64,000 bases of DNA, from positions 1 through 64,000 of the forward strand of contig OY970296.1 of NCBI GenBank assembly GCA_963716175.1. The letters run 5' to 3'. Below are positions 3,858 through 44,418 of this stretch, piece after piece. Each line of letters opens with the position of its first letter. Within the stretch, counting starts at the first letter, position 1. Both the position numbers and the translations under genes were made by a program. The notes under the pieces were generated by a model. That model did no database searches. It saw only the letters and a list, made by a program, of their open reading frames with translations, and was not told the origin of the DNA. Source of the stretch: an uncultured Armatimonadetes bacterium (lineage in GTDB: Bacteria > Armatimonadota > Hebobacteria > Hebobacterales > Hebobacteraceae).

Positions 3858-4535
3858 TCAGGTCTCGCCCAACCCACGCCGAATCGCGTAGCGGGCGGCC
3901 TGGACGCGGGTTCTGACGCCCAGCCTGCGCAGCAGTTGGGCGATATGACTCTTCACGGTCTCCTTGCTGATGAATAGCCGGGAGGCGATGTCCGCGTTGC
4001 TCAGGCCGAGAGCGACCAACCGCAGCACTTCTCGCTGGCGCGGGGTCAGGTTGAGCGAGGGTGAGGGATCGGATCGGGCCCCGTCAAGAGCTATACCAGC
4101 TCCGGGGTTGGCGTGCTCTGCAAGCTCCGGCTGGACCCAGTTTGCGCCATTGAGGACCGCGCTGATGGCCGCTGGCAGACACTCGTGGGCGGAGGTCTTC
4201 AGCATGCAGCCGTGAGCACCCGCGTCCATCGCCAGGGCCAGGCCGGCGGCGTCCGGCAGGCTCGCGAGCAGCACGAGCCGGCACTCGGGCAATAGACGCG
4301 ATAGCTGGGCAACCAAGGCGTGGGTCTGGCGGCCCTTGATGAAGGCATCGAGAAGCACCAGGTCGGGCCGCTCCCGACCTGCCATTGCCAGCCCCTCCTT
4401 CGCCGAACTGGCTTCCCCAACCAGATCGAGCTCGGGCATGGTCTCGCTTAGGTAGAGGCGCAGACCGAGCCTGAACACCAACTGGTCGTCTATCAGGATG
4501 GCACGAATCCTCTGGACCTGCTCTCGCCCCTGCAT
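3858..4535 (-). CDS. NarL/LuxR-family response regulator
   Basis: Receiver (LIDDQ...VLLDA) plus LuxR HTH (LTPRQREVLRLVALGLSNADIASRLFISKETVKSH). Confidence 0.93.
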   Translation of the reverse strand: MQGREQVQRIRAILIDDQLVFRLGLRLYLSETMPELDLVGEASSAKEGLAMAGRERPDLVLLDAFIKGRQTHALVAQLSRLLPECRLVLLASLPDAAGLALAMDAGAHGCMLKTSAHECLPAAISAVLNGANWVQPELAEHANPGAGIALDGARSDPSPSLNLTPRQREVLRLVALGLSNADIASRLFISKETVKSHIAQLLRRLGVRTRVQAARYAIRRGLGET

Positions 4536-4564
4536 CTTTCCTCAGCCTTCAGCAAAGTGTGAAC

Positions 4565-4586
4565 TCGGACACCGCTGGATGTCCGA
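4565..4586. promoter_or_regulatory. 7-8-7 inverted repeat, possible operator in the divergent promoter
   Basis: TCGGACA-CCGCTGGA-TGTCCGA, 30 bp upstream of the regulator start. Confidence 0.3.
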
Positions 4587-4739
4587 ACCGTGGCCTGGCC
4601 TCTCTTCAGGGCCCTTTTGCCCATTTCTAGTCCATCCATGTATTATTCTCACTCCTTTGGGTGATTGTGTTGCCCCCAAGGCTATGCTAACCTGCCGTGC
4701 AGGTTATCCCCGGCATGGCGAAGGGCTCAGGACAGACAG

Positions 4740-5099
4740 ATGCTCGGGCAATTGCCGAACGCACCATCGATCTACGAGTTGGGCGTTGGCTGCGTCGCGC
4801 TGGTGGGCATCGCGGCCCTGCTGTTGATGGCGCGGGCACAGAATGCGACCCTCAAGGAGTGCCGGGAGTTGAGAGAGGGGACTCTGGAGTCTGAACGGAG
4901 CCGAGGGCAGCTCAACTGCCTGTTGATTGACCTATTGGCAACCATGAATCTGAGCCTGGCGAGCCGGCTGTCCCAGGAGTCCGACGACGAGTCTCGGACC
5001 ACCCTGGAGCAGATCCGCATGGCGGTGGAGGAGGCCCTGCACGAGCAGCGACAGATGGCGGTCAGCGCCCGGGTCCGTAACCTGCGAAGGTCGGGATAG
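4740..5099 (+). CDS. Small membrane protein with a degenerate HisKA_3-like helical hairpin and no ATPase domain
   Basis: One TM (GVGCVALVGIAALLLM), then ERSR...LLATMNLSL...LEQIRMAVEEALHEQRQM. Confidence 0.6.
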   Translation: MLGQLPNAPSIYELGVGCVALVGIAALLLMARAQNATLKECRELREGTLESERSRGQLNCLLIDLLATMNLSLASRLSQESDDESRTTLEQIRMAVEEALHEQRQMAVSARVRNLRRSG

Positions 5100-5690: not shown

Positions 5691-6629
5691 ATGTCGAAGT
5701 GGTTTGCAGTTTTGATGGCACTAGTGCTGGTCGCGATAGTGGCCAGCGCGGCCGTGGCGAAGCCAATCACGCTGACTGACGGGCAGCTCTCGGCGATCGT
5801 CGCGGGAGAGGTCGCTGATATCGAGCACAGCTCGGGCGTGGCAACCGTTGGTGACAACGGAACCGCGATCGGCGAGCTCGAGGTCAAGGACTCGCTCAAC
5901 CAGCAGGAGACCAAGATTGAGGACTCCCTCAACACCGACAACTCGGTCAACACCGAGGACTCCCTCAACACCGACACCGAAGTTAAGGTTGAGGATTCGC
6001 TCAACAAGACCGAGACTGAGGTCAAGGTCGAGGATTCGTTCAACAAGACCGAGGACTCCAACAATACCGACAAGAGCGTGGATAACAGCGTTGACAACAG
6101 CGGTCAGGACAACAGCACCACGACCGTCACCAAGATGGAGGATTCCAACAACACCGACACCGAAGTTAAGGTTGAGGATTCGTTCAACAAGACCGAGACT
6201 GAGGTCAAGGTCGAGGATTCGTTCAACAAGACCGAGGACTCCAACAATACCGACAAGAGCGTGGATAACAGCGTTGACAACAGCGGTCAGGACAACAGCA
6301 CCACGACCGTGACGAAGACCGAGACCGAGACCAAGATTGAGGATTCCTACAATACGAACAATCAGAATCATAGCAAGAACCTGATTCTGATGGACGACGC
6401 CCAGGAGAATGCGCGCGCGATCTCCCTGGTCAACAGCCTCGGCGGGGACGTCGCTGTGGGCAGCAACATCCTGGTAGTGGCCAACCAGGCCAGCGCGGCC
6501 CCGGGTGGTGCCGGCGGCGACGCGCGGACGCAGATCTGCAGCTCCGTGTTGGCCCAGCTGGTAGCCAACTTCTCGAGCGTGAAGATCACCCTTGGCGGCG
6601 GAGGCCGAGACGGCGGAGGCGGAGACTAA
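5691..6629 (+). CDS. Secreted D/N/S/T-rich repeat protein, putative major functional-amyloid subunit (Fap-like system)
   Basis: RBS, Sec signal MSKWFAVLMALVLVAIVASAAVA, LTDGQLSAIVAG motif, many (K/V)xEDS(F/L/N/Y)N repeats; first gene upstream of C39 and FapF-like genes. Confidence 0.75.
   Translation: MSKWFAVLMALVLVAIVASAAVAKPITLTDGQLSAIVAGEVADIEHSSGVATVGDNGTAIGELEVKDSLNQQETKIEDSLNTDNSVNTEDSLNTDTEVKVEDSLNKTETEVKVEDSFNKTEDSNNTDKSVDNSVDNSGQDNSTTTVTKMEDSNNTDTEVKVEDSFNKTETEVKVEDSFNKTEDSNNTDKSVDNSVDNSGQDNSTTTVTKTETETKIEDSYNTNNQNHSKNLILMDDAQENARAISLVNSLGGDVAVGSNILVVANQASAAPGGAGGDARTQICSSVLAQLVANFSSVKITLGGGGRDGGGGD
5967..6310 (+). repeat. 183-bp (61-aa) near-perfect tandem duplication inside the repeat protein
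   Basis: Units start at 5967 and 6150 (aacaccgacaccgaagttaaggttgaggattcg...). Confidence 0.92.
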
Positions 6630-6678
6630 GTGAAGTGACTGGGGAGGCCGTCACCCGGCTTCTCCACGGCAAGGCTCG

Positions 6679-6712
6679 GTCGTTGGGTCGCCCGATGGGG
6701 CGACCCAACGAC
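6679..6712 (+). other. Perfect 15-bp intercistronic stem-loop after the putative major subunit gene
   Basis: GTCGTTGGGTCGCCC-GATG-GGGCGACCCAACGAC, no U-tract. Confidence 0.75.
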
Positions 6713-6745
6713 TCCGGGCCATGCGGGAAGAAAGGCAGGGCTGTT

Positions 6746-7258
6746 ATGGTACGAGCAAAGAGTGGTCTGTATGTGACGCTGATTGGCCTCGCGATGCTGA
6801 TCGCGATCAACCAGGCGTCTATGGGTGCGCCTATTCCCCTCTCCGATCGCGAGCTTGACGGCGTTTATGCCGAAGGTCTGGTTTTCGACTTGGACATGAA
6901 GCTCGACATCCAGGAGGGAAGCACGGTGTCGTTTGAGGGCGGCAACGTTGAAGACCTCAAGGCGTTGCTGGAGAATGGCTTGAGCTGGAAGAGCGCCGGG
7001 GTCGGAGATTCGGGCGGCACCGTAAAGGCCATGCTGGAGCCTGGGGGCGACCTGAATCTCGACGGCCTGTTGGGTTCCATCTACGTGGGCGGAAACGCCC
7101 TCCAGAACACGCAGAACCTATTCAACCTGATCGTCCAAGGCGGGGACGTGGCCGTGGGCATCAACATCTCCGTCATCCTGAACCCGGTGGACAGCAACTT
7201 CTCTCTCTACAACTTCAATTTCAACTTCGGCGACGGGACCGTCACCATAGGGCAGTAG
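6746..7258 (+). CDS. Second secreted subunit of the Fap-like operon (FapB/FapE-like)
   Basis: Signal peptide, then PIPLSDRELDGVYAEG; C-terminal GNALQNTQNLFNLIVQGGDVAVGINI resembles the C-terminus of the upstream repeat protein. Confidence 0.65.
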   Translation: MVRAKSGLYVTLIGLAMLIAINQASMGAPIPLSDRELDGVYAEGLVFDLDMKLDIQEGSTVSFEGGNVEDLKALLENGLSWKSAGVGDSGGTVKAMLEPGGDLNLDGLLGSIYVGGNALQNTQNLFNLIVQGGDVAVGINISVILNPVDSNFSLYNFNFNFGDGTVTIGQ

Positions 7259-7264
7259 GGCTCC

Positions 7265-8005
7265 ATGAGACACACGCTCAATACGTCCGGAAGCAGGGTG
7301 GCAGCGCGGTTGCTATCGGCCGCAGTCCTGTGGCTGATCGCGATGGCGGGTTCCCTCCCGGCAGCGGAGTTGCGGATTCCGGTAGGGACCTTCTCGGGGA
7401 TCAACCTGACAGTGCGGCAGCAGGTGTTGAGTGTGGAGGAGCTGCGGAAACGGGATCTCACCATCCAGGAGCTGGACTATAGCTGCGGCTCGGCCGCTCT
7501 GGCAACTCTGCTCAATGCCTACCTTCAGATTCCGGTGACGGAGCGAGAGATCATTGACCACATCCTGAAGACCGGCGATCTGCGTAAGATCATCGCGCGG
7601 CGCGCCTTCTCGCTGCTCGATCTCAAACGCTTCGCCACCAGTCGCGGCGCCGAGGCGGAAGGCTATAGCCTGACCTTTGACGAACTCATAGATCTTCAGC
7701 AGCCCATGCTGGTTCCCATCGTCATCCGAGGCTACAGGCACTTTGTCATCTTCCGCGGGATGAAGGATGGACGCGTGTACCTGGCCAATCCCTCCTTCGG
7801 AAGATGGACCTTGGCGCGAGCCGAGTTCGAGCGAATGTGGAAGCTGAAGGTGGGTCTCGGCGTCTGGCCAAAGTATGGGCCCACACTGCCAGGGAACGCC
7901 ATGCGGCTAAACAAGGAGGACGAGGTCTATGTATCATCGCCGAGCACGAGCTCACTCTGTCTTGGTTCCGGCCTGCAGTTTGGTCAATCGCCGCACGAGT
8001 TCTAG
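7265..8005 (+). CDS. fapD: Secreted C39-family cysteine peptidase, FapD-like
   Basis: Signal peptide; QELDYSCGSAALATLL, FSLLDLKR, YRHFVIFRG, YLANPSFG. Confidence 0.88.
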   Translation: MRHTLNTSGSRVAARLLSAAVLWLIAMAGSLPAAELRIPVGTFSGINLTVRQQVLSVEELRKRDLTIQELDYSCGSAALATLLNAYLQIPVTEREIIDHILKTGDLRKIIARRAFSLLDLKRFATSRGAEAEGYSLTFDELIDLQQPMLVPIVIRGYRHFVIFRGMKDGRVYLANPSFGRWTLARAEFERMWKLKVGLGVWPKYGPTLPGNAMRLNKEDEVYVSSPSTSSLCLGSGLQFGQSPHEF

Positions 8006-9122
8006 CCGCCCACATATCCTGTCTGGTAGAGCGGCGCCCGTACTTCGGCTGATCTTTCTCTGCTCCATTGTGGCCATCGCCCTATGCTGGCAGGGGAATC
8101 AGCACGCGGGGGCGGCCGCTGAGGCCCCCGCCGCCCCGGGGCAAGCCGCCCCAAGCCAAGAGGAGACGAAGGATACACTCCAGACCCCGACCGAGCCCCA
8201 GCGCCCATCTTCTTCTCAGGTCGAGCGCGGCGGACTGCTGGCTGGCAAAGGCAGGCTGGAGCTGGAGTATCGGCTCTCCTACGCACACTTCTCCCGGAAT
8301 GTGATCTTCATTGATGGCGTCGCTATCCTGCCGGTGCTGGTCGTGGGGGAGATTGCCGTGGAACGCATCCGGCGGGATATCCTGGTCGCATCCGTCACTG
8401 GGCGCTATGGTTTGCGCGACAATCTCCAGCTCGAGTTGACGGTTCCCTATCGCTACCAGGGTGATCGGAGCTCTGTCCCAGAGGCAACCCCTCCCCGGGA
8501 GACGACCCTCAGCGACCGCGGCCTGGGAGATATCCAGGCCGGACTCTTCTACCAGCTTCCCGGTTCCTCCGCCCGCCCGATCAAGTACATCGCCGGGCTG
8601 CGCGTGAAGAGTACAACCGGCAAGGACATATTCGAGATTAATCCCGAGAAAGAGCACGCCATGGGCACCGGCTTCTGGAACACCAAGCTCTCTCTCACCG
8701 CGGTGCGAGTCTCCGACCCAGCCGTGCTCTTCGCGACCGTCGGTTACACTCACAACTTCGACCGACGCAATCTCCTTGTCACTTCGCAGGACCCCGAAAC
8801 CGGGGAGCCGGTGCAGACCCGGGTCAGCTTCTACCCGGGCGGTACGATCGAACTCGGTACCGGCCTGGCCTACGCCCTCAATCCCCGGCTTTCCCTGAAC
8901 ACTCAGTTTGCTGTCAGTTGGACCCGGGCGACTCGGGTGCAGACTCCGACCTCAGGGGGCAGTGTCCCCATCAGTGGGACCACTCTCACGGTGGGCAGCC
9001 TCCGGCTCGGCACCGTGTGGGTTGACGATCCGCGTGCCGCCACCGAGTTGTCGGCGGAAATCGGACTGACAGAGGATGCGCCGGACATGCTCCTCGAGCT
9101 TCGGAGGTCGTATCGGTTCTAA
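7929..9122 (+). CDS. fapF: Outer-membrane beta-barrel transporter, FapF-like
   Basis: GGLL..G..ELEY..SY, RYGL...VPYRY, GLGDI, TTGKD, GTGFW, DPAVLF, PG..ELGTGLAYALN, terminal F. Start uncertain. Confidence 0.8.
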   Translation: MYHRRARAHSVLVPACSLVNRRTSSSRPHILSGRAAPVLRLIFLCSIVAIALCWQGNQHAGAAAEAPAAPGQAAPSQEETKDTLQTPTEPQRPSSSQVERGGLLAGKGRLELEYRLSYAHFSRNVIFIDGVAILPVLVVGEIAVERIRRDILVASVTGRYGLRDNLQLELTVPYRYQGDRSSVPEATPPRETTLSDRGLGDIQAGLFYQLPGSSARPIKYIAGLRVKSTTGKDIFEINPEKEHAMGTGFWNTKLSLTAVRVSDPAVLFATVGYTHNFDRRNLLVTSQDPETGEPVQTRVSFYPGGTIELGTGLAYALNPRLSLNTQFAVSWTRATRVQTPTSGGSVPISGTTLTVGSLRLGTVWVDDPRAATELSAEIGLTEDAPDMLLELRRSYRF

Positions 9123-9123
9123 T

Positions 9124-9219
9124 GGCGTTCGCACAAAGAAGTAATGTGCGAACGCCGCTCTGGGCCCGTCTGAGCAGTTGCCTGAGCTTCGCCCCCCTAC
9201 TTCTTTGAGCGAAGCTCAG
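9124..9219. terminator. Two hairpins after the FapF-like gene
   Basis: GGCGTTCGCACA/TGTGCGAACGCC (9124-9156) and CTGAGCTTCGC/GCGAAGCTCAG (9182-9219). Confidence 0.5.
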
Positions 9220-9309
9220 TAGGGGACAAGGGCGAAGTTTCTGCCCGTGGGCGCTTTCGACCTGGAGCACGGCCTCTGGAGTGCCCGGGTCCCCCATTTC
9301 GGTGGGCGC

Positions 9310-10869
9310 ATGAGGAATCAGGGCATGGTGATGGGATTCAGGAGACGGTGGCTATTGCTGGCGATCGGGCTGCTCACCGCCTCCTCGGCGCGAGCAGCAG
9401 AGGCGGGCATTCGGTTCACGGTCACCGAGATCCCTCTCGGCAAGCTAACTGCGAGCATCCCCCTGGCGACCGTTCTCGTCAGCCCGGACAGCAGGAGACT
9501 CGCCTTCTCGACTGCGCGCGGCGGAAAATGGACGGTCGTGGTGGACGGAGTGGAGGGCAAGCGTTACGACCACATTGCCAAGAACAGTGTGATCTTCAGC
9601 CCGGACGGACGGCAGTTCGCCTATCCCTTCAGGCGAGACGAAAGATGGGCGGTCGCAGTTGGGGGTTCCGAACACCAATCATTCGACAGCATCGGGCAAA
9701 ATACTCTGCTCTTCGGCCCCGACGGCAAGCGCCTCGCCTATGTTGCCAGGAGCGGCGCAAAGTGGGCTGTCGTGGTGGACGGTGTCCCTGGGAAGGAGTA
9801 TGACGGCATCGTAGCGGGAAGCGTCGCCTTCAGCCCCGACGACAGGCGCCTGGCCTATGCCGCCCGGGATGGCACCCGGCGCTTCGCCGTGATTGATGGG
9901 GTCGAGGGCAAGGAGTATGCCGCAGTCTCGGGCCTCGTGTTTAGCCCGGACAGCACCCGCGTCGCTTACCTGGCAAGACGCGGCCAACGCCAGTTGGTGG
10001 TCGCGGATGGAGAGGAGGGGAAGGAGTATGAGGCGGTCAAGTCTCTCCAGTTCAGCCCTGACAGCAAGCGCTTCGCCTTTGTTGCTTTGCACGACGGGCG
10101 CCCGGTGGTCGTCGTGGACGGAGTGGAAGGCAAGGACTACGATGGGATCGCCTTCCTCCATTTCAGCCCCGATGGCGGCCGGGTGGCTTATGTCGCCATG
10201 CGGAATGGCAAAGAACGCGTCGTCGTGGATGGCGTAGAAGGGCCGGAGCGCGACGCGGTCGGTGTCGCAAGCCCGGTCTTCAGCTCGGACGGCAAGCGGA
10301 TGGCCTCGGCCTTCTCCCAGGGCGGAAAGTGGCTTATCACCCTGGATGGACAGCAGAGCAAGGCTTACGACGGAATCGGCAAGGGGAGCCCACTGTTCAG
10401 TCCCGACGGTCAGCATCTCGCCTGCCTCGCGAAACGCAACGGCAAGTGGCTGGTCGTACTAGACAGTATGGAGGGTCCTGAATTCGACGCCATTGGGGAA
10501 CGCGGTCCCGTCTTCAGCCCCGACAGCAAGTTGCTCGCCTATCCTGCCAGGCGGGGGAGCAGGTGGCAAGTAGTGGTGAACGGGGTGGGGACAAAGGAAA
10601 CCTATGATGGTTTCCTACGGGGGAGCAACCTGGTGTTTGACGGTCCGAAATCGCTGCACGCGATTGCCTTACGTGGGAACGACTTCATTCGCCTCGAGCT
10701 GCAAGTCCTGGGAGCTGATCCCGGCGCAACCGCCACGCAGCCGGGCCGCCCGATTTCATCGCCGAACCCCACGAAGCCGGTGGCTACTGGAAACCTCTAT
10801 CACGACTGGGACAGGGCAACAATCTGTCCCGAGGAGGGTGCAGTCCTCTTAGGAGGTGCTTGCGGCTAG
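9310..10869 (+). CDS. Secreted TolB/PD40-like beta-propeller repeat protein
   Basis: Signal peptide plus ~10-11 repeats of FSPDGxRxAYxAxxGxKWxVVVDGxEGKxYD. Confidence 0.85.
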   Translation: MRNQGMVMGFRRRWLLLAIGLLTASSARAAEAGIRFTVTEIPLGKLTASIPLATVLVSPDSRRLAFSTARGGKWTVVVDGVEGKRYDHIAKNSVIFSPDGRQFAYPFRRDERWAVAVGGSEHQSFDSIGQNTLLFGPDGKRLAYVARSGAKWAVVVDGVPGKEYDGIVAGSVAFSPDDRRLAYAARDGTRRFAVIDGVEGKEYAAVSGLVFSPDSTRVAYLARRGQRQLVVADGEEGKEYEAVKSLQFSPDSKRFAFVALHDGRPVVVVDGVEGKDYDGIAFLHFSPDGGRVAYVAMRNGKERVVVDGVEGPERDAVGVASPVFSSDGKRMASAFSQGGKWLITLDGQQSKAYDGIGKGSPLFSPDGQHLACLAKRNGKWLVVLDSMEGPEFDAIGERGPVFSPDSKLLAYPARRGSRWQVVVNGVGTKETYDGFLRGSNLVFDGPKSLHAIALRGNDFIRLELQVLGADPGATATQPGRPISSPNPTKPVATGNLYHDWDRATICPEEGAVLLGGACG

Positions 10870-10920
10870 TCGGGCTTCACGCTGATCGAGCTGTTGGTCG
10901 TGATCGCTCTGCAATAGTAG
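10870..10920 (+). pseudogene. Prepilin N-terminal remnant
   Basis: SGFTLIELLVVIALQ followed by TAG TAG. Confidence 0.7.
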
Positions 10921-11214
10921 AGTGTCTCCGAGGGGGGAGTGCGCGTATTGTGTGGCATTTGCATGAACGGGCTTGCCAACGATGACCTCCAAGCGCGCCC
11001 CGGGGCACTGGGCATCTCGTGGCGGATTCGGGCAGAAGGGACGATAGACACCCCCGAGCAGCAGAGCAGCAGTCCGCAGGCGCGGCGGAAGACAGCCCAT
11101 ACCTTGCCACGACCTGCGACGAACTGCGGGAACAGACCGCGAGCAGGCATTCCCCCGTCTGCCTCAACAGCACATCATGCCAGGACATCGCTTGGGCGCT
11201 CTCCGATCCGGCGC

Positions 11215-11640
11215 TCAACGAAGCCGGATGACGTAGTCCACCTTCACGGTGTAGTTGGTGTCGGCGCCGGGTGCGGTCGGAAACGTCGCCCAGCTCTCCA
11301 CGAGGGAATCCCTGGACAGCGGGCTGATGAACCCCAGACTCCACATGGATTCGTGGCCGTCATCCGTCTGGATCCAGGCGCTGCGCAGGGTCAGGCGCTT
11401 GGTCACTGTCGCGTCCGCGCCGAGAAACAGAGCGTGATTGTGCGATTGGAGGCTATACCCGAGGTGACCATTCGCCTGCCCCCCCACCGGTATCGAAGCT
11501 ACTGCGTACGGAAAGACATCGCCATGCCAATCCCGATCACCCGAGACGTTTGCCACGCCCAGGGCGACTCGGGCGCCCTGCTGCAAGGGAATGCGGTATT
11601 TCGCCTGGAAGACCGGCCCGCCACCCGATTCCGGCCCGCG
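11215..11640 (-). pseudogene. 5'-truncated outer-membrane beta-barrel-like gene
   Basis: Alternating beta-strand pattern (VFQAKYRIPL...VALGVANV...LFLGADA...YTVKVDYVI); no signal peptide or credible start. Confidence 0.5.
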
Positions 11641-12614
11641 AGGCCTTGGCGGAACCGGAGAAGGCGCGGCCGCCGGTGCCGGCCCAGGTGGAGCGTGGGG
11701 GGCTGCTCTTGGCCCCGGGGAAGTCCGAGGTCGAGTACCGGCTCTCCCTGGCGAACTTCTCCAGCAACACCATCTTCATTGACGGAATCGCCATCCTCCC
11801 GGTAATCGTGGTGGGGAACATCGCCCTCTAACGCACCCGCACTCACATCCTGATCGAGTCTTGGGCCTACCGGCTGGGGCTGCCGAACAACACTCAGTTC
11901 GAGCTCATGGTGCCATACCGCTACCAGCACAACCGAAACGCAGTCCCTGAGGCCACTCCGCCCAGAGAGACCCTCCAGGACGACCGCGGCGTAGGCGACA
12001 TCACGGCCGCGATCTATCACCAGCTCTCCGGCCGACACTGGGGCAGCGCCCTGGTGGCCGGCCTACAGCTCAAGTCCACCACAGGACGGGACATCTTTGA
12101 GACCATCCACCTCGTAACCATTGACGACGAGACACAAGTGGTGCAAGATGGCTTGCCGATGGGGACAGGGTTCTGGAGTGCGAAAGCAGTGCTGGCCGGG
12201 GTGCGGATCTCAGACCCGGCTGCGCTCTTCTGGAACCTAGGATACACCCGGAGCTTGCCCCGCGACCACGTGACCGTGTACCGTACCGACCCCACCACCG
12301 AGACGCCGGCGGGAGAGCAGGTGAAGGTCTCGCCGGGCGCCACCTTCGAGTACGGCTTCGGCCTGGGTTATGCCCTGAACCCCGACCTCTCGCTTAACCT
12401 GCAGTTCCAGCAGTCATTCACCCAGTCCACGCGCATCAGCGGAGCTGAAGCAGCCGGCTGGGTTGCCGGCTCCACGGTGAATGCGGCTATCTTGCGGTTG
12501 GGAGCGGTCTGGAGCACAAGCGCGCACTCGAGCACGGAGCTGTCGGTGAGCAATGGGCTTACCGCGGACTCGCCCGACTTCGTCGTGGAACTGCGTAAGG
12601 TCTACAGCTACTAG
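11638..12614 (+). pseudogene. Second FapF-like barrel, 5'-truncated, with an internal TAA
   Basis: QVERGGLLLAPGKSEVEY...GNIAL*RTRTHIL...VPYRYQ is collinear with 7929..9122; TAA at 11829-11831 where the paralogue has E. Confidence 0.85.
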
Positions 12615-14799: not shown

Positions 14800-15231
14800 T
14801 CAGAGCCTCGGCGAGCGCGGCCGAGAGCGGTCGGCCGCGCAGGCCAATCGCGAGAGGAAGCGAACCGGCCGTGCAGCCCGGTTGATGAAGGCACAGATGC
14901 CGTCTCTCATCTCCTCTACCTCCCCGATCAGAGCGTCGGGCTCCGAATCGCGATGCCGCTCACAGAAGTCGATGCTGAGTTTCAGCGCCGCGCAGAGATG
15001 GAACAACTCGCGCCGGAACTCACTTGACTCGTCGTTGGACCTAGGCGGGAGCAGGATTGGGGGAAGGCTGTGGACCCTCGGCATCGTGATGACCACCATC
15101 ACCGCGCACAGCGCGGTACTAGCGACGGCGCTGACCAGCGCCGCCAGCGTGAAGCCCAGGCCAAGCGCTGACAACCATGCTACTGCGATGAGCATTGACG
15201 CCAGAAACCGATACTGCGAGTTCGCCTTCAT
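14800..15231 (-). CDS. Small membrane protein with a HisKA_3-like hairpin and no ATPase domain
   Basis: Two TM helices, then EFRRELFHLCAALKLSID...EPDALIGEVEEMRDGI; divergent from a NarL regulator. Confidence 0.55.
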   Translation of the reverse strand: MKANSQYRFLASMLIAVAWLSALGLGFTLAALVSAVASTALCAVMVVITMPRVHSLPPILLPPRSNDESSEFRRELFHLCAALKLSIDFCERHRDSEPDALIGEVEEMRDGICAFINRAARPVRFLSRLACAADRSRPRSPRL

Positions 15232-15359
15232 CGAGCTACCTTTCTTGAGAACTCGTTCGTATGGCGCAGGGCTGTCAGCCCGCGTTCCGCCCAGCCACGT
15301 GGGTCTCAAGGGTCAGCGCATCGCCTTGCCCGAGGCCCTCTGAGCGGGGAAGCAGCGTC

Positions 15360-16034
15360 ATGGGGAAGCCGAACCATAAGCCGAAGGCCGTTGTCCGCAT
15401 CCTCATCGCCGATGCCTACCCATTCTTCCGGCGCGGTCTTCGTACGTTCCTGGAGGATATGCCAGAGTTCACCGTCACAGGAGAGACCGGCGACGCGGAG
15501 GAACTGCTTCGTCTCTGCCAAGCGCACCAACCTGGCGTCGTTCTGCTGGCTCTTGATCTACCCGGGTTCGACGGTAGTGTTCCCGTGGGCCTTCTGCGCG
15601 ATCGCGCGCCAAAGGCCAAGTACGTAGCTCTGGCCACTCCGGATAACGAAGAAGTCCTGGCCGCCTGTGTGGACGGCGGCCTCGACGGCTGCGTCATGAA
15701 GAATGCCGACCCTCCCACCATTCTGAGCGCCATCCGAGCTGTCAGCACTGGCGCGACCTGGTTCCAGCGCGAGTTGAGTGGTGAACTCTTCCAGGAACTC
15801 CGCAAGACGCGCAGTTCCGCACGCCAACGCGTCACTGCCGCCCTCAGCGAGCGAGAGAGCGAGGTGCTCTCCCTGCTGGCTGAAGGGCTTCGCAACGCCC
15901 AGATTGCCAAGCGTCTCTTCATCAGCGAGCGCACCGTGAAGGTGCATGTCTCCAAGATCTTCAGCAAACTGCAACTGCGGGATCGCGTGCAGGCAACCCG
16001 CTACGCGATTCGCACAGGCATGGTGCGTCCCTGA
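15360..16034 (+). CDS. NarL/LuxR-family response regulator with an atypical receiver
   Basis: LIADAY...VVLLALDLPG (phosphoacceptor D appears to be A); LuxR HTH LSERESEVLSLLAEGLRNAQIAKRLFISERTVKVH. Confidence 0.92.
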   Translation: MGKPNHKPKAVVRILIADAYPFFRRGLRTFLEDMPEFTVTGETGDAEELLRLCQAHQPGVVLLALDLPGFDGSVPVGLLRDRAPKAKYVALATPDNEEVLAACVDGGLDGCVMKNADPPTILSAIRAVSTGATWFQRELSGELFQELRKTRSSARQRVTAALSERESEVLSLLAEGLRNAQIAKRLFISERTVKVHVSKIFSKLQLRDRVQATRYAIRTGMVRP

Positions 16035-38765: not shown

Positions 38766-41700
38766 TCACGGCGTGATGGTGAACTCGGGCTGAAGGTCGA
38801 GTTCCTGGAAGACACCGGGTTCGTGCTCCACGCTTACCACGAGGGTGTAGAGGCCCGCCGGCAGTTCGCCGGGTATATCCCACCAGACTGCGTAGTAGGG
38901 GACGCCTGACGACCAAGCCGTATCCCTCGCCGCGTTGAGGTCGTGCTCTGTAAGTGAGGCCACTCCGGCGCGAGCCACAGGCCCGCGCAGATCAAAGCGC
39001 ACATCGAACGAACCGTCACCGGCCGCCAAGTTTGGGCCCAGGCGCGCCGCGTCGAAGACGACGTAAGCATAGCCGGGCTCCGATGCTGGCCCGCCGCTGC
39101 GTGAAGACCACCCGTTGTAGGTGGCGGTCCCCGGGTTGACCGCGGTCACGGCCGGACCTCCCAGCACTACAGGATTGCCGGTAGGCATCACAAAGGCCCG
39201 CCACATGTAAACCGCCATCTGGCCTCGGCTCACCGGATCGCCAGGCCGATAGGTCCTGGTATCAAAGCCTTGGACGATGCCGTGGGCCACGCAGCACTCG
39301 ATCTCGTTATAGGCCCAGTGGTCGGTGAGCACGTCCTTGAAGCTGGGTTCGGGCGGGCCGTCGGGAACCTTGGTGCCTCCCACCAGCGCGCGGGATATGT
39401 AAGCCGCCATCGCATCTCGGTTCACAATCATAGCGGGCCGGTACGTTCCGTCATTGAAGCCTTGCACCACTCCTGCCCGGGCCAGTCCTTCGATCTCGGC
39501 CCAGGCCCAGGAGTCGGCCTGGGTGACGTCCCTGAACCGCCCTTGGTACGGCGCGGTAGGCAGCTTCAGGGCGCGCAGGATGTAGACCGCCATTGCATCC
39601 CGCGCCACCAGGATAGCTGGACGGTAGGTTCCGTCGTCATAACCTCTAACCACGCCGGGCACCCGTCCTGCGAGTTCCTCTATATGGAAGCGTGCCCAGG
39701 AGGCATCATGGCCCAGGCCAGGCTGGATGTCAGAGAAGCGGCTGATCACAACGTCCTCAGAGACCAGACCTCCCTTCCACGGAACCTCCCCACGCGAGAG
39801 CTGCCACCCGCAACCCAGTCCGTCCGGTACACCTGGCGATGTCGTCGTTACTGGTAGATCATAACTCAGCGTCGTCAGCGGCGGGGCTACCGTTGAGAAG
39901 TCGAACGTGCATGTCGCCCCAGGCAGGACCTCTGCTTCCAGGGGGACGGAGGCGACGCCCCAGCGGTCCATACTGCCCCGGGCCTCAAGGTGGTATCCTT
40001 CCCCCGGCCGCCATGTGAAAGCATCAAGGTTCTGGTAGGTGATGGAGGTATTCGCAGCCTCCCCCCAGCTAAGGCTAAGGGGCAGAGACCTTGCTGTCAC
40101 CTCACTCGATCCGGGTGGCACGGACTGAACGGCGAGCGTGACCGCGCCACTGTCGCTGGCTGGGTTCGGTCCGTCGCAGGTGGCGGTGACTGTGAGCGTG
40201 ATGCTCTCCTCGCTGTCTGTGGTGTTGGCTGGAGCAGTATAGGTCGGATTCTGGAGGCTCGGGGAAAGCGAGAAGCTTCCTCCCGCGCCTCCATCAGACC
40301 AGGACCAGGACGCGATAGTATGCCCGGAGCGGGTGTCCGCAGCTGTGGCGGAGAGGGTGGCGGTCCCGCCAGAGGCAACAGCAGCAGGGACAGCAGACGC
40401 GCTGACCACCAGAGAGTGCGCCACCGGCTGCACGACCAAGAGGGTGGAGTTGCTGGCGCTGAGCGGCTCAGGTCCGTCGCAGGTGGCGGTGACTGTGAGC
40501 GTGATGCTCTCCTCGCTGTCCGCGGTGTTGGCTGGAGCAGTATAGGTCGGATTCTGGAGGCTCGGGGAAAGCGAGAAGCTTCCTCCCGCGCCTCCATCAG
40601 ACCAGGACCAGGACGCGATAGTATGCCCGGAGCGGGTGTCCGCAGCTGTGGCGGAGAGGGTGGCGGTCCCGCCAGAGGCAACAGCAGCAGGGACAGCAGA
40701 CGCGCTGACCACCAGAGAGTGCGCCACCGGCTGCACGACCAAGAGGGTGGAGTTGCTGGCGCTGAGCGGCTCAGGTCCGTCGCAGGTGGCGGTGACTGTG
40801 AGCGTGATGCTCTCCTCGCTGTCCGCGGTGTTGGCTGGAGCAGTATAGGTCGGATTCTGGAGGCTCGGGGAAAGCGAGAAGCTTCCTCCCGCGCCTCCAT
40901 CAGACCAGGACCAGGACGCGATAGTATGCCCGGAGCGGGTGTCCGCAGCTGTGGCGGAGAGGGTGGCGGTCCCGCCAGAGGCAACAGCAGCAGGGACAGC
41001 AGACGCACTGACCACCAGAGAGTGCGCCACCGGCTGCACGACCAAGAGGGTGGAGTTGCTGGCGCTGAGCGGCTCAGGTCCGTCGCAGGTTCCCGTGACC
41101 GTGAGACAGATCGTGATGTCAGAACCCGTTAGGTTCTCGGGTGCGCGATACTGCGGGTCCGAAACCGCGGCGGAGGGCGAGAAGCTTCCTCCCGCGCCTC
41201 CATCAGACCAGGACCAGGACGCGATAGTATGCCCGGAGCGGGTGTCCGCAGCTGTGGCGGAGAGGGTGGCGGTCCCGCCAGAGGCAACAGCAGCAGGGAC
41301 AGCAGACGCGCTGACCACCAGAGAGTGCGCCGCCGGCTGCACGACCAAGAGGGTGGAGTTGCTGGCGCTGAGCGGCTCAGGTCCGTCGCAGGTGGCGGTG
41401 ACTGTGAGCGTGATGCTCTCCTCGCTGTCTGTGGTGTTGGCTGGAGCGCTATAGGTCGGATTCTGGAGGCTCGGGGAGGGCGAGAAGCTCCCTCCCGCGC
41501 CTCCATCAGACCAGGACCAGGACGCGATAGTATGCCCGGAGCGGGTGTCCGCAGCTGTGGCGGAGAGGGTGGCGGTCCCGCCAGAGGCAACAGCAGCAGG
41601 GACAGCAGACGCACTGACCACCAGAGAGTGCGCCACCGGCTGCACGACCAAGAGGGTGGAGTTGCTGGCGCTGAGCGGCTCAGGTCCGTCGCAGGTGGCG

Positions 41701-44303
41701 GTGACTGTGAGCGTGATGCTCTCCTCGCTGTCCGCGGTGTTGGCTGGAGCAGTATAGGTCGGATTCTGGAGGCTCGGGGAAAGCGAGAAGCTTCCTCCCG
41801 CGCCTCCATCAGACCAGGACCAGGACGCGATAGTATGCCCGGAGCGGGTGTCCGCAGCTGTGGCGGAGAGGGTGGCGGTCCCGCCAGAGGCAACAGCAGC
41901 AGGGACAGCAGACGCGCTGACCACCAGAGAGTGCGCCGCCGGCTGCACGACCAAGAGGGTGGAGTTGCTGGCGCTGAGCGGCTCAGGTCCGTCGCAGGTG
42001 GCGGTGACTGTGAGCGTGATGCTCTCCTCGCTGTCTGTGGTGTTGGCTGGAGCGCTATAGGTCGGATTCTGGAGGCTCGGGGAGGGCGAGAAGCTTCCTC
42101 CCGCGCCTCCATCAGACCAGGACCAGGACGCGATCTCGTGCGGTCCGCTATCACTCGCGCTTGCGCTCAGCACGGCGCTCCCAGCGGACGCCACACTCCC
42201 CGGCGAGACCGAGGCCGTGACGGATAAGGTGTGTGGGACCACCGTGACTGTGACGGTGTCGCTGGCGGCCTGAGTCCCACTATCCGTAACGGTCAACGTA
42301 TACGTGGTGGTGGCACTCGGAGACGCTACCGGTTGCACGACATGAGGGGCATCAATCCCGGTACTCGGTGACCACGAATAGGAGTAGGGAGGCTGTCCAC
42401 CGGAGGCAGATCCGCCCAACACAGTGGAGTCGCCCGGTGTTATGATCCTGCCGGGCCCCGCTTCGGCAAACAGCCGTGGGATGACGAGTACCCCTACAGT
42501 ATCGCGGTCCGTTCCCCCGGAGCTGTCGGTCACGGTGAGCGTGTAGAGGGTCGTGCTGTCCGGCGATGCCGCAGGATGGGCGACGGCCGGATTGCTCAGG
42601 CCCGCCGTTGGTGACCACGAGTAGTGGTAGGGAGTTACCCCGTTGGATGCGGACCCCTCGAGTGTAGTGGACTCCCCGGCGATGATGGTCTCGTCGGGGC
42701 CCGCTTCAGCCATCACGGTTGATGCCGCCGTGTACGTGTAGCCGAGCGCCTTGACGCCCGACACTACCTGCTTCAGGTAATCGATGTCGTAGTCGGGGTG
42801 GAAGTACGCGCTCGCCCAGCCGTCCCGTACCACCAGGCTCTTCTGGGCGGCCCTGACGATGTCTTCCGGAAACCGCGCGGGACAGTCGTAGAAAGGAACC
42901 GGCTCGACATTGCCCAAGTTCTCGGGCAGGATCCTCTGGTTATACACGTCGCGCTCAATCACATAGGGGTAGAACTGCCCGGCGTAATCCGCGCCATCCG
43001 AAGTGAAGTAGAGCACGCGACCCGCGATGAGGTTGAACCGATGACCAAGCTCAACCGAGTCCAGGCTCGAGGCCAGGTAGTGCGGCGTTTCCCAGGCGAT
43101 GGGAGCGAACCCGCACGCCGCTAGCTCTGCGAGTGCCTGGTCGATACGTCCATTCACCCAAGCGACCGAGTCTTCGGGCAGCGGGCCAATAAGCTCGGTG
43201 TCGCCTGCCGCCTCGTTCCATACTGACCGGAGGAATTCGCAGTCATCCCCTGTCATGCCATCGTAGGGGTTGGGAGTACTGTCGTACTGATGGGTGTAGC
43301 CATGGTCAATGATCTGGCCTCCTCGGGAGACCATATACTTGAGCGCATTCACAACTGTGTGTGACTGAGAGAGGCGCACCGTCTGGGGAGTGCCGTTCAC
43401 AACCCCCAGAGGGTCATTGAAGACCGGGATGGTGGCGACTTCAAACGGTGCTCGCTGCGAAGCAAGATAATCGGCCACTGACTTCAGATCGGAACTGTGG
43501 GCGATGGGATCCACATCTTCGATTCGAATCAGAGCGCGGTGGCTCGGCGCGTGGTCTATGCCCACGATGTCGTGGATGAGATCGCAAAACACGAGGTAGC
43601 GGTCCTCTTCGGATACATAGCTGAACGGCGAATCGGCGAAGTACCAAAGGTTCCCCGAGTGGACCACATATGGCCACGAGGCCCCCGGCTGAGCATCTGT
43701 AGCCGGACGGTAGGCGATGGCCTTCACCTCGGCAAGGTTGGGATCCAGGATCATAGTCGCGCCCACATCCGGGTCCGCGAGGTCCTTCACAAGGGACTCT
43801 TCCTTGTACTGGACCTCGGGGAAGCCACTGCTGTCCACCCCGGCGAACTGGAATCCATAGCGCCCACTGAAAGCAGGATCCCAGTACCCGGCGTCATTCC
43901 AGGCGATCTGCCAGAGGTTGTAACTGAACCAGCAGACCGTCCGCTCTGTCGCCATCACGTCGGACAAGAACGCGCTGGGCAACGGATTATCGAACGCAAC
44001 TCCCAGGTAGAACGTGACCGCGTAGTTCTCCACCTCGCCAGCGGTGTAGCTCTCCACCGGTTCCAGCGTCCACGCCATGGGGAAATGCCCTAGCAGATTT
44101 GCGACCTGCAAGGCATGAAGCTCGCCTAGCCAGGCGCAGGGGGGTGCCGAGTCGTACAGAATGAGGGCCGAAACCGGGTGCTGTGGCGGAGGTCCTGCCG
44201 CTCTGGCCGCCGAGTGACCTAGGGCCAAACAGCTGAGCAGGATGAGGCCCAGCCATCGCGCTCGTCCCGTTGTCGTTCCCAAAGCACTCAGGTTAGAGCG
44301 CAT
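38766..44303 (-). CDS. Large cell-surface protein: DUF2334-like polysaccharide deacetylase, PKD/Ig-like repeats, SLH domains
   Basis: Signal peptide; IRIEDVDP, HGYTHQ, ETPHY, YFHP; three SLH-like units (GYDDGTYRP, GFNDGTYRP, GFDTRTYRP). Confidence 0.88.
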   Translation of the reverse strand: MRSNLSALGTTTGRARWLGLILLSCLALGHSAARAAGPPPQHPVSALILYDSAPPCAWLGELHALQVANLLGHFPMAWTLEPVESYTAGEVENYAVTFYLGVAFDNPLPSAFLSDVMATERTVCWFSYNLWQIAWNDAGYWDPAFSGRYGFQFAGVDSSGFPEVQYKEESLVKDLADPDVGATMILDPNLAEVKAIAYRPATDAQPGASWPYVVHSGNLWYFADSPFSYVSEEDRYLVFCDLIHDIVGIDHAPSHRALIRIEDVDPIAHSSDLKSVADYLASQRAPFEVATIPVFNDPLGVVNGTPQTVRLSQSHTVVNALKYMVSRGGQIIDHGYTHQYDSTPNPYDGMTGDDCEFLRSVWNEAAGDTELIGPLPEDSVAWVNGRIDQALAELAACGFAPIAWETPHYLASSLDSVELGHRFNLIAGRVLYFTSDGADYAGQFYPYVIERDVYNQRILPENLGNVEPVPFYDCPARFPEDIVRAAQKSLVVRDGWASAYFHPDYDIDYLKQVVSGVKALGYTYTAASTVMAEAGPDETIIAGESTTLEGSASNGVTPYHYSWSPTAGLSNPAVAHPAASPDSTTLYTLTVTDSSGGTDRDTVGVLVIPRLFAEAGPGRIITPGDSTVLGGSASGGQPPYSYSWSPSTGIDAPHVVQPVASPSATTTYTLTVTDSGTQAASDTVTVTVVPHTLSVTASVSPGSVASAGSAVLSASASDSGPHEIASWSWSDGGAGGSFSPSPSLQNPTYSAPANTTDSEESITLTVTATCDGPEPLSASNSTLLVVQPAAHSLVVSASAVPAAVASGGTATLSATAADTRSGHTIASWSWSDGGAGGSFSLSPSLQNPTYTAPANTADSEESITLTVTATCDGPEPLSASNSTLLVVQPVAHSLVVSASAVPAAVASGGTATLSATAADTRSGHTIASWSWSDGGAGGSFSPSPSLQNPTYSAPANTTDSEESITLTVTATCDGPEPLSASNSTLLVVQPAAHSLVVSASAVPAAVASGGTATLSATAADTRSGHTIASWSWSDGGAGGSFSPSAAVSDPQYRAPENLTGSDITICLTVTGTCDGPEPLSASNSTLLVVQPVAHSLVVSASAVPAAVASGGTATLSATAADTRSGHTIASWSWSDGGAGGSFSLSPSLQNPTYTAPANTADSEESITLTVTATCDGPEPLSASNSTLLVVQPVAHSLVVSASAVPAAVASGGTATLSATAADTRSGHTIASWSWSDGGAGGSFSLSPSLQNPTYTAPANTADSEESITLTVTATCDGPEPLSASNSTLLVVQPVAHSLVVSASAVPAAVASGGTATLSATAADTRSGHTIASWSWSDGGAGGSFSLSPSLQNPTYTAPANTTDSEESITLTVTATCDGPNPASDSGAVTLAVQSVPPGSSEVTARSLPLSLSWGEAANTSITYQNLDAFTWRPGEGYHLEARGSMDRWGVASVPLEAEVLPGATCTFDFSTVAPPLTTLSYDLPVTTTSPGVPDGLGCGWQLSRGEVPWKGGLVSEDVVISRFSDIQPGLGHDASWARFHIEELAGRVPGVVRGYDDGTYRPAILVARDAMAVYILRALKLPTAPYQGRFRDVTQADSWAWAEIEGLARAGVVQGFNDGTYRPAMIVNRDAMAAYISRALVGGTKVPDGPPEPSFKDVLTDHWAYNEIECCVAHGIVQGFDTRTYRPGDPVSRGQMAVYMWRAFVMPTGNPVVLGGPAVTAVNPGTATYNGWSSRSGGPASEPGYAYVVFDAARLGPNLAAGDGSFDVRFDLRGPVARAGVASLTEHDLNAARDTAWSSGVPYYAVWWDIPGELPAGLYTLVVSVEHEPGVFQELDLQPEFTITP
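40130..42240 (-). repeat. Seven tandem 303-bp (101-aa) Ig-like repeats
   Basis: SWSWSDGGAGGSFS...TVTATCDGP occurs 7 times with 303-bp period. Confidence 0.93.
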
Positions 44304-44379
44304 TTCATAACCTACCGGCTGGCTGGCCGCACCACGCCCTCGCATGAAATGCGCCTGCCACTGCCTGACGTCGTGCAGT

Positions 44380-44418
44380 GCTGTTTCATAGCCTCCCATG
44401 GGAAGGTTATGAAACAGC
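44380..44418. repeat. 39-bp palindrome resembling joined IS ends
   Basis: GCTGTTTCATAGCCT-9nt-AGGTTATGAAACAGC, with CTAG just downstream. Confidence 0.55.

What the first reader, a model, noticed from the sequence alone, without database searches (positions are those of the whole stretch)
5691..9122. Fap-like functional amyloid export operon with an unusual acidic DSxN-repeat subunit, in an apparently non-proteobacterial host
Seen: four co-oriented genes encoding a secreted repeat protein, a second secreted protein, a signal-peptide-bearing C39 peptidase and a beta-barrel. Known: C39 FapD plus barrel FapF is the export core of Pseudomonas Fap amyloid, described mainly in Proteobacteria. The cargo lacks the classical FapC GNxGVNxAAGxGNQQxN repeats. 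Instead it has about 10 (K/V)xEDS(F/L/N/Y)N units and SVDN runs, a highly acidic beta-arch-like pattern. Inference: a new class of amyloid or beta-solenoid fibre exported by Fap-type machinery, placed between pilus loci in a biofilm island of a probable Armatimonadota-like organism.
Basis: partly seen in the sequence, partly recalled or inferred. Interest (0 to 1): 0.85.

Follow-up and report, generated by a model that had tools for sequence, protein, structure and literature searches.

The report
Fap-type exporter with leader-tagged cargo
An uncultured Armatimonadota bacterium carries a four-gene relative of the Pseudomonas amyloid-export machinery, and both of its secreted cargo proteins bear a bacteriocin-style protease tag, which points to what this poorly understood periplasmic protease cuts; that the cargo forms an amyloid fibre is plausible but not shown.

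Summary
A (11 DSxN units), B, a secreted C39 peptidase and a FapF-type barrel (PDB 5o67, E 9e-31) form a cluster whose order is kept in 6 of 6 class-mates with context. The host is Armatimonadota-like and diderm. Classical Fap repeats are not detectable.

The interpretation needs correcting. The DSxN array is a recent local expansion: 42 of 45 family members have 0-3 units. What is conserved is (1) a double-glycine-type leader after the signal peptide (L-12, L-7, V/I-4, A-G; 40 of 43 A-family proteins), (2) a C-terminal Asn-rich beta module shared by A and B, in register with the Fap repeat but not significantly, and (3) a hairpin after A.

Best model: Sec export, C39 recognition and clipping of the leader, passage through the barrel, stacking via the C-terminal module with an acidic passenger. 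Folding gave no confident fibre model. FapD/FapF pairs outside Proteobacteria are already in print; I found no paper on this cargo. This scan reported the same kind of system before on other DNA, including another Armatimonadota genome. Verdict: new variant of a known kind.

The parts
5691..6629 (+). Gene A, predicted major cargo (312 aa): signal peptide + leader + acidic DSxN passenger + conserved C-terminal beta module
   Evidence: family of 39 real hits among 40 (one ankyrin false positive); no Pfam or NCBIfam family reached
5691..5759 (+). Predicted Sec signal peptide of A (23 aa, ends A-V-A)
   Evidence: sequence, judged by eye
5760..5807 (+). Double-glycine-type leader of A (L-12, L-7, I-4, A-2, G-1); predicted C39 site after Gly39
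   Evidence: 40 of 43 A-family proteins; A-G in 39 of 39 with a jump in variability right after; helix in the AF2 model; consensus from PMC6363468
5889..6353 (+). DSxN/SVDN repeat array (11 DSxN), acidic variable passenger
5948..6313 (+). 183-nt (61-aa) tandem duplication, 96% identical; an otherwise identical protein with one copy exists (P0002, 251 aa)
6375..6590 (+). Conserved C-terminal module of A: three predicted strands with conserved Gln/Asn/Gly; candidate stacking unit
   Evidence: alignments; three long strands per module in a low-confidence model of the two-module G106 homologue
6679..6712 (+). Perfect 15-bp GC-rich hairpin between A and B, no U-tract; candidate mRNA stabiliser giving A >> B, D, F
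   Evidence: (z -5.8, 0 of 200 shuffles); hairpins after the last A in 6 of 6 relatives, z -1.9 to -3.8 against mononucleotide shuffles
6746..7258 (+). Gene B, conserved minor cargo (170 aa): signal peptide + leader ending A-E/A-A then G + one C-terminal module
   Evidence: Atlas look-alikes are DUF6160-bearing clusters (score 0.94; family on 38-44% of members)
7265..8005 (+). Gene D, signal-peptide-bearing C39 cysteine peptidase (Q68, C74, H159; N175 where 59 of 59 homologues have Asp)
   Evidence: one contig of run X2 reads G at 7787, giving Asp
7929..9122 (+). Gene F, FapF-type outer-membrane barrel without the N-terminal coiled coil; start codon uncertain
11550..12614 (+). Second FapF-like copy, degraded: no signal peptide in frame, in-frame TAA at 11829-11831; closer to the G106 barrel (64%) than window F is (53%)
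3858..4535 (-). LuxR/NarL-type response regulator upstream, syntenic in G106; candidate regulator

Best explanation
A four-gene, Fap-related secretion unit that exports two leader-tagged subunits for a surface polymer. (1) A, B, D and F cross the inner membrane by Sec (inferred from signal peptides). (2) Removing the signal exposes a short amphipathic leader on A and B. The periplasmic C39 peptidase D binds it as C39 domains bind double-glycine leaders and clips A after Ala-Gly; B's leader ends A-E or A-A and may be cut more slowly or kept (inferred). (3) The unfolded chains pass through the plugged barrel F (inferred from FapF). (4) Outside, the conserved C-terminal module, one per chain, stacks strand-on-strand into a cross-beta fibre. 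A is the major and B the minor or nucleating subunit, a ratio set by the hairpin after A (inferred, least certain step). (5) The middle of A is a freely variable acidic passenger, here an expansion of a DSFN unit that most relatives carry 0-3 times; it may extend the beta core or decorate the fibre. Shown: gene content, order, co-occurrence, motif conservation, homology of D and F. Not shown: cleavage, secretion, polymerisation.
For: Order A(1-3 copies)-B-D-F in 6 of 6 class-mates with contiguous context, and in metagenome locus L113. B and a close F homologue occur in the same 8 of 31 class genomes. F matches solved FapF (E 9e-31) and keeps E111 and R157. D's best solved match is the double-glycine protease LahT (6mpz, E 5e-10); C74 and H159 are invariant in 59 of 59 homologues. 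The leader pattern is in 40 of 43 A-family and correctly placed in 10 of 11 B-family proteins, against 61 of 1837 background ORFs. A(-2)G(-1) holds in 39 of 39, and entropy jumps to about 3 bits at +1. The spacing equals the LahT determinants V-4, L-7, L-12 (PMC6363468 passages). In the genome only A and B carry the leader at E < 0.01. The A and B modules resemble each other beyond column shuffles (0 of 60). The host has Omp85 and LpxC.
Against: No significant similarity of the module to Fap repeats: HMM 47 of 200 shuffles as good, hhalign 34 of 60. An ungapped profile picks the module in register in window A and B, but 38 and 21 of 100 shuffles score as well, and only 7 of 39 A-family members are in register. 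AF2 models are low-confidence (pLDDT 47.9 and 43.3). FapC ranks first in Foldseek only at E 2.1, TM 0.12. The site is A-G, not the canonical G-G/G-A/G-S, and the leader families of Pfam and NCBIfam were not matched. F lacks the coiled coil described as critical for FapC secretion. As assembled, D has Asn for the third triad residue. A net charge of -34 disfavours in-register stacking of the whole mature chain without cations.
Confidence: 0.6

Rival explanations
1. One reading: the DSxN units are themselves the fibre core, a new acidic beta-arch amyloid or solenoid that replaces Fap repeats.
For: The 12-13-residue units have alternating small or hydrophobic and charged residues followed by D-S-(F/L/Y)-N. 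An S[FY]N sits just before the module in 34 of 40 aligned members (the profile was built with it, so biased), so two units may belong to the core.
Against: 0-3 units in 42 of 45 members, none in 14. The G106 protein has two modules and no DSxN. Copy number differs between near-identical proteins (A vs P0002). AF2 gives no strands and pLDDT < 50 there. Similar arrays occur in IniB-domain actinobacterial proteins of another architecture.
Confidence: 0.15
2. Same export route, but the product is not amyloid: a surface-attached adhesin, beta-helix or acidic cation-binding coat whose C-terminal module is only a secretion or anchoring signal.
For: Passengers vary from about 20 to 1300 residues and are all acidic. 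There is only one module per chain in most members. The related Acinetobacter Fil system is annotated as a putative pilus, and D scores higher on FilB (147 bits) than on FapD (110).
Against: The module recurs in tandem (2 copies in G106-type proteins, 14 in P0050), as solenoid rungs do. It has conserved Asn/Gln ladders and alternating hydrophobic strands. A major/minor pair with a hairpin between fits a polymer.
Confidence: 0.2
3. The leader is a binding tag only; D acts as a chaperone on A and B and cuts something else, or nothing.
For: A-G and A-E ends depart from the canonical site; some C39-like domains are non-catalytic chaperones (PMC5135000 passage); window D has N175 as assembled.
Against: Catalytic Cys and His are invariant and Asp is present in 59 of 59 homologues. 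G(-1) is invariant in A with an abrupt loss of conservation after it. FapD C38A abolishes secretion (PMC5557850 passage).
Confidence: 0.15
4. F is a hydrophobic-molecule uptake channel (COG4313/MetA type) lying next to unrelated secreted proteins.
For: Weak Pfam PF13557 hits (E 0.05 and 1e-4); FapF is structurally related to such channels (PMC6173800 passage).
Against: Strict co-occurrence and order with A, B and D; full-length FapF match; the same paper says C39 genes are not reported beside COG4313 channels.
Confidence: 0.03

Closest known systems
Pseudomonas Fap functional-amyloid system (fapABCDEF; FapF PDB 5o65/5o67/5o68; FapC fibrils 9nqd, 9u4u)
   Same: Sec-exported C39 peptidase plus 12-stranded plugged barrel in one operon with secreted Asn-rich cargo; E111 and R157 kept; FapC also has a variable low-complexity linker; FapE begins with a similar L-x4-L-x2-L-x-G motif (by eye).
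   Different: Four genes, no FapA-like gene seen; no detectable three-repeat FapB/FapC; one module per chain; leader on both cargoes rather than on FapE alone; no coiled coil on F; plug E98 replaced by Arg with an acidic residue at the S399 position in 8 of 8 aligned clade members; separate well-supported clade in the barrel tree; both NCBIfam Fap models far below cut-off (110/330, 124/700).
Acinetobacter Fil putative pilus system (FilA/DUF6160, FilB C39, FilC barrel)
   Same: D scores best on FilB (147 bits); B's look-alikes are DUF6160-bearing clusters; weak DUF6160 hits on the leader region of relatives.
   Different: All below cut-off; F is closer to FapF (124 bits) than to FilC (64); no FilD-F-type genes seen; Fil itself is barely characterised (4 papers listed, none read).
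Double-glycine leader / C39 domain of PCAT bacteriocin exporters (LahT, ComA)
   Same: Leader spacing L-12, L-7, V/I-4 with a small-residue pair at the end; D's best solved match is LahT150.
   Different: Peptidase is free and periplasmic, not fused to an ABC transporter; leader is hidden behind a Sec signal; site is A-G instead of G-G/G-A/G-S.

Membership tests
Fap system | FapF-type barrel | tested here: met
   PDB 5o67 E 9e-31 over the whole barrel; E111, R157 kept; below the equivalog cut-off
Fap system | Secreted catalytic C39 peptidase (FapD) beside it | tested here: met
   PF03412 E 4e-15; Q68, C74, H159; third residue Asn as assembled, Asp in one public contig
Fap system | FapB/FapC subunits with recognisable Fap repeats (typically three) | tested here: not met
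   HMM, hhalign and ungapped profile all within the shuffle range
Fap system | fapABCDEF gene set with FapE (FapA often lost) | tested here: not met
   Four genes A-B-D-F; no Fap cargo family hit in NCBIfam or Pfam; B resembles FapE only by its leader, by eye
Fap system | N-terminal periplasmic coiled coil on the barrel | tested here: not met
   About 40 Pro/Ala/Ser/Thr-rich residues between signal and plug, against a heptad-like stretch in Pseudomonas FapF (by inspection; no coiled-coil predictor run)
Fap system | Cross-beta solenoid fold of the subunit | tested here: inconclusive
   pLDDT 47.9 and 43.3; FapC top Foldseek row at E 2.1
Functional amyloid | Forms ThT-positive, SDS/formic-acid-resistant fibres | not testable with these tools
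   bench test
C39 double-glycine leader | Hydrophobic residues at -12, -7, -4 on a short helix | tested here: met
   helix at mature residues 7-14; PMC6363468 passages
C39 double-glycine leader | G-G, G-A or G-S at -2/-1 | tested here: not met
   A-G in 39 of 39 A-family leaders; A-E or A-A in B
C39 double-glycine leader | Cleavage by the cognate peptidase | not testable with these tools
Acinetobacter Fil system | FilA/FilB/FilC models above cut-off | tested here: not met
   FilB 147/475, FilC 64/630, FilA one member at E 0.33

The most novel reading that the evidence does not exclude
Fap is one branch of a much wider two-step secretion pathway (Sec, then a periplasmic C39 checkpoint, then a FapF barrel), in which a hidden double-glycine-type leader licenses export and a single C-terminal beta rung polymerises chains carrying arbitrary passengers of 20-1300 residues. 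This Armatimonadota branch would be a natural amyloid display platform, and here the passenger is a polyanionic DSxN solenoid whose assembly is switched by cations.
Probability: 0.35. Interest if true: 0.8.

Novelty: new variant of a known kind. Interest (0 to 1): 0.55.

Why it matters
The substrate of FapD is stated to be unknown (PMC6173800 and PMC5557850 passages), although its activity is essential for amyloid secretion. This minimal four-gene version names a precise candidate site (A, after Gly39) and can be tested in laboratory E. coli. It also defines an undescribed cargo family in which a constant tag and a constant C-terminal module flank interchangeable passengers. That would widen functional-amyloid export well beyond Proteobacteria and offer a way to display large passengers on fibres.

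Tried and rejected
Complex prediction of four copies of A's C-terminal part: no verdict (scores 0.07 and 0.02, mark 0.42); not used as evidence either way. AF2 of mature A: pLDDT 47.9, and Foldseek on it found nothing. AF2 of the two-module G106 homologue: pLDDT 43.3; Foldseek rows not significant. The VIA-align comparisons never ran, so the fold question stays open. PDB sequence searches with the A-module and B profiles: nothing under E 0.07. Atlas for A: best 0.84, a lead only. The leader HMM picks the cargo as top ORF in Planctomycetia, Omnitrophota, Verrucomicrobiota, Acidobacteriota, Limnochordia and gammaproteobacterial loci (10-22 bits), but Pseudomonas FapE only at 2.6-2.7 bits in 2 loci, so the FapE link is by eye only. 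No sigma-70 promoter or intrinsic terminator was found for the cluster on the + strand upstream of A. Sequencing runs: no RNA holder listed. No listed contig piece spans the stop in the second barrel copy (32 pieces shown, 172 not), and the duplication in A was outside the stretch laid, so repeat-number variation versus assembly collapse is unresolved. A regex count of the third triad residue failed and was redone by alignment. The barrel tree is the quick tree, since the careful search did not finish; 33 of 80 near-redundant Pseudomonas, Erythrobacter and Vibrio rows were left out. Five weak barrel hits in another family of the phylum (E 1e-7 to 1e-8) were not followed up. Rejected: a conserved 'biofilm island'; recent transfer from Pseudomonas (separate clade); DSxN as the family signature. 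PMC3684753 and PMC6173800 hold no 'hairpin' passage, so I claim no published parallel for the A-B hairpin.
Full report
OBSERVATION. The four co-oriented ORFs are real. A (5691-6629) has a signal peptide (by eye), 11 DSxN and 4 SVDN matches and a strongly acidic core (net -28 over 165 aa); no other ORF among 42,228 in the genome has more than 3 DSxN. The array includes a 183-nt duplication at 96% identity. P0002 is the same protein with one copy (251 aa), which is either a repeat-number allele or an assembly collapse. D is a C39 peptidase that scores 147 bits on FilB and 110 on FapD, both far under cut-off. F scores 124 on FapF and 64 on FilC, and matches solved FapF over its barrel at E 9e-31. 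A second, degraded barrel copy lies at 11550-12614.

HOST AND DISTRIBUTION. Four of the seven closest titled relatives of F are Armatimonadota and three are 'uncultured bacterium'. The window barrel falls in that clade with support 100 in a quick tree of 49 rows, apart from the Pseudomonas/Halomonas/Erythrobacter clade. The genome has Omp85 and LpxC, so an outer membrane is expected. In 401 genomes of the phylum, 13 match F: 8 strongly, all in the own class, and 5 weakly. B is found in the same 8 of 31 class genomes. The order A(1-3 copies)-B-D-F holds in 6 of 6 relatives with contiguous context; G204 is split over two contigs; metagenome loci L113 (A-B-D-F) and L112 (A-B-D, contig end) agree. 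Two upstream genes, including the response regulator, are syntenic in G106, but no pilus genes were matched in 5 of 5 relative loci. Of 468 FapF-type loci found, the best 80 include Planctomycetota, Omnitrophota, Verrucomicrobiota, Acidobacteriota, Myxococcota, Thermodesulfobacteriota and Bacillota.

WHAT IS CONSERVED IN THE CARGO. A profile of A's C-terminus found 40 proteins among 1.84 billion representatives, 39 real. They share three parts.

First, straight after the signal peptide comes a motif with L/M at -12 and -7, V/I at -4 and a small residue at -2. It is present in 40 of 43 A-family proteins, correctly placed in 10 of 11 B-family proteins (the eleventh match was spurious in an over-long ORF), and in 61 of 1837 background ORFs. 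Among 39 leaders selected by that pattern, -2 is Ala in all and the unconstrained -1 is Gly in all, after which entropy rises to 2.8-3.6 bits. These are the positions LahT reads (PMC6363468 passages), and LahT is the best solved match of the D profile. The A-G end departs from the canonical G-G/G-A/G-S.

Second, there is a variable acidic middle of about 20 to 1300 residues. DSxN counts over 45 sequences are 0 in 14, 1 in 11, 2 in 16, 3 in 1, and 4, 7 and 11 in P0003, P0002 and window A. The same-family G106 protein has none and carries two C-terminal modules instead. DSFN arrays also occur in IniB-domain actinobacterial proteins and in P0007/P0010, which have another C-terminus.

Third, there is a C-terminal module with near-invariant Gln, Asn, Gly, Gly, Gln, Asn, which B shares (hhalign 20.9, above 60 of 60 shuffles).

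IS THE MODULE A FAP REPEAT? By eye its N-x3-G-x6-N spacing is in register with FapB/FapC repeats taken from the fetched loci. Tests do not confirm homology: HMM scores are within shuffles and hhalign gives 8.1 with 34 of 60 shuffles as good. An ungapped profile selects the module in register in window A, window B and 9 of 11 B-family proteins, but in only 7 of 39 A-family proteins, and 38 and 21 of 100 shuffles match the window scores. AF2 gave pLDDT 47.9 for A, with a helix on the leader, 59-72 over the module and under 50 over the array. It gave 43.3 for the two-module homologue, with three long strands per module. Foldseek ranked the two FapC fibrils first among 350,542 chains, but at E 2.1 and 2.9, which is a hint only.

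MACHINERY DETAILS. E111 and R157 of FapF are kept. The plug E98 is Arg, with an acidic residue at the S399 position in 8 of 8 aligned clade members, a possible charge swap (inference). F has no coiled coil, a part that PMC5557850 calls critical (passages). D keeps Q68, C74 and H159 but has Asn175 where 59 of 59 homologues have Asp. One contig of run X2 (depth 3.8) reads the Asp codon, and three runs differ from the window at 7274, so an assembly error or rare allele is likely. A 15-bp hairpin without U-tract follows A (z -5.8), and hairpins follow the last A in 6 of 6 relatives, consistent with A being made in excess.

MECHANISM. Most likely (0.6): Sec export, recognition and clipping of the leader by D, passage through F, and stacking by the C-terminal module, with A major and B minor and the DSxN array as passenger. 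The export part alone I put near 0.85, cleavage of A's leader near 0.7, and a cross-beta polymer near 0.55. Rivals: a non-amyloid surface protein (0.2), DSxN as the core (0.15), the leader as a binding tag only (0.15), an unrelated uptake channel (0.03).

LITERATURE. PMC3792158 (parts 1-2 of 5 read) restricts Fap to Proteobacteria and notes that FapD and FapF belong to larger families. PMC6173800 (passages, plus two supplement passages) reports co-localised fapD/fapF in five additional phyla and says the FapD substrate is undetermined; its Fig. S1 is a picture I could not see, so Armatimonadota may be among those phyla. PMC5557850 (passages) finds FapE's mature N-terminus missing and says Fap proteins lack canonical C39 sequences. 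PMC12459412, bioRxiv 10.64898/2026.10.01.755530 (supplements closed), PMC3684753 and PMC5135000 were seen as passages. Searches for this cargo, its leader or Fap in Armatimonadota (listings only) turned up no description; subscription journals are mostly not covered. The scan's own notes hold 12 similar findings in at least 11 genomes, 8 shown, including another Armatimonadota locus with the same leader reading. I had reached that reading before the look-up, and those notes are not independent support.

VERDICT. It works like Fap export but is not a member of Fap proper (no Fap-repeat subunits, no fapABCDEF set, no coiled coil). It is a new variant of a known kind, interest 0.55.

Noticed in passing
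window 9119-9222: A 104-nt element with 25-nt inverted arms starts CTAA, ends TAG and supplies F's stop codon. It has 54 blastn matches in the genome (about 21 near-full at over 91% identity) and appears in other contexts in all four runs laid. It looks like a REP/MITE-type dispersed repeat.
   Followed up: partly
window 10869-12614: A patch of gene remnants: a short fragment of a prepilin-type N-terminus near 10872-10907, a minus-strand fragment 11218-11586 that is 73% identical to a gene at G000:C1:1127260-1127625, and the degraded second barrel.
   Followed up: partly
window 9310-10869: Secreted PD40/TolB-like beta-propeller (TmcD-family score 135/440) directly after F; a 33% homologue lies about 2.7 kb upstream of the cargo genes, on the opposite strand, in L028 only, of 5 loci tested.
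   Followed up: partly
L030:3920-8389 and L113:99-4043: A-family members with 1300-1450-residue passengers of another repeat type; the L030 one lacks the leader pattern.
   Followed up: partly
P0050: A 1159-aa protein with signal, leader and 14 tandem copies of the module: the best natural target for solving the module's fold.
   Followed up: no
P0004, P0006, P0008, P0009, P0011, P0012: IniB N-terminal-domain proteins (PF27122; one named from Georgenia) end in long DSFN arrays like A's, with no signal peptide: the same repeat in a different setting.
   Followed up: no
L042:3421-6278 and L048:3464-5759: Bacillota (Limnochordia) loci carry C39 + barrel; the L042 cargo scores above all 100 shuffles on the Fap-repeat profile and its partner has the leader, so they are possible intermediates between this variant and Fap.
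   Followed up: partly
window 14803-16034: A second pair of small membrane protein plus LuxR-type response regulator, divergent like 3858-5099, sits beside the Tad locus; shared regulation is possible.
   Followed up: no
window 38769-44399: A 1877-aa protein with DUF2334, PKD-like and S-layer homology domains in a genome that also has Omp85 and LpxC.
   Followed up: no
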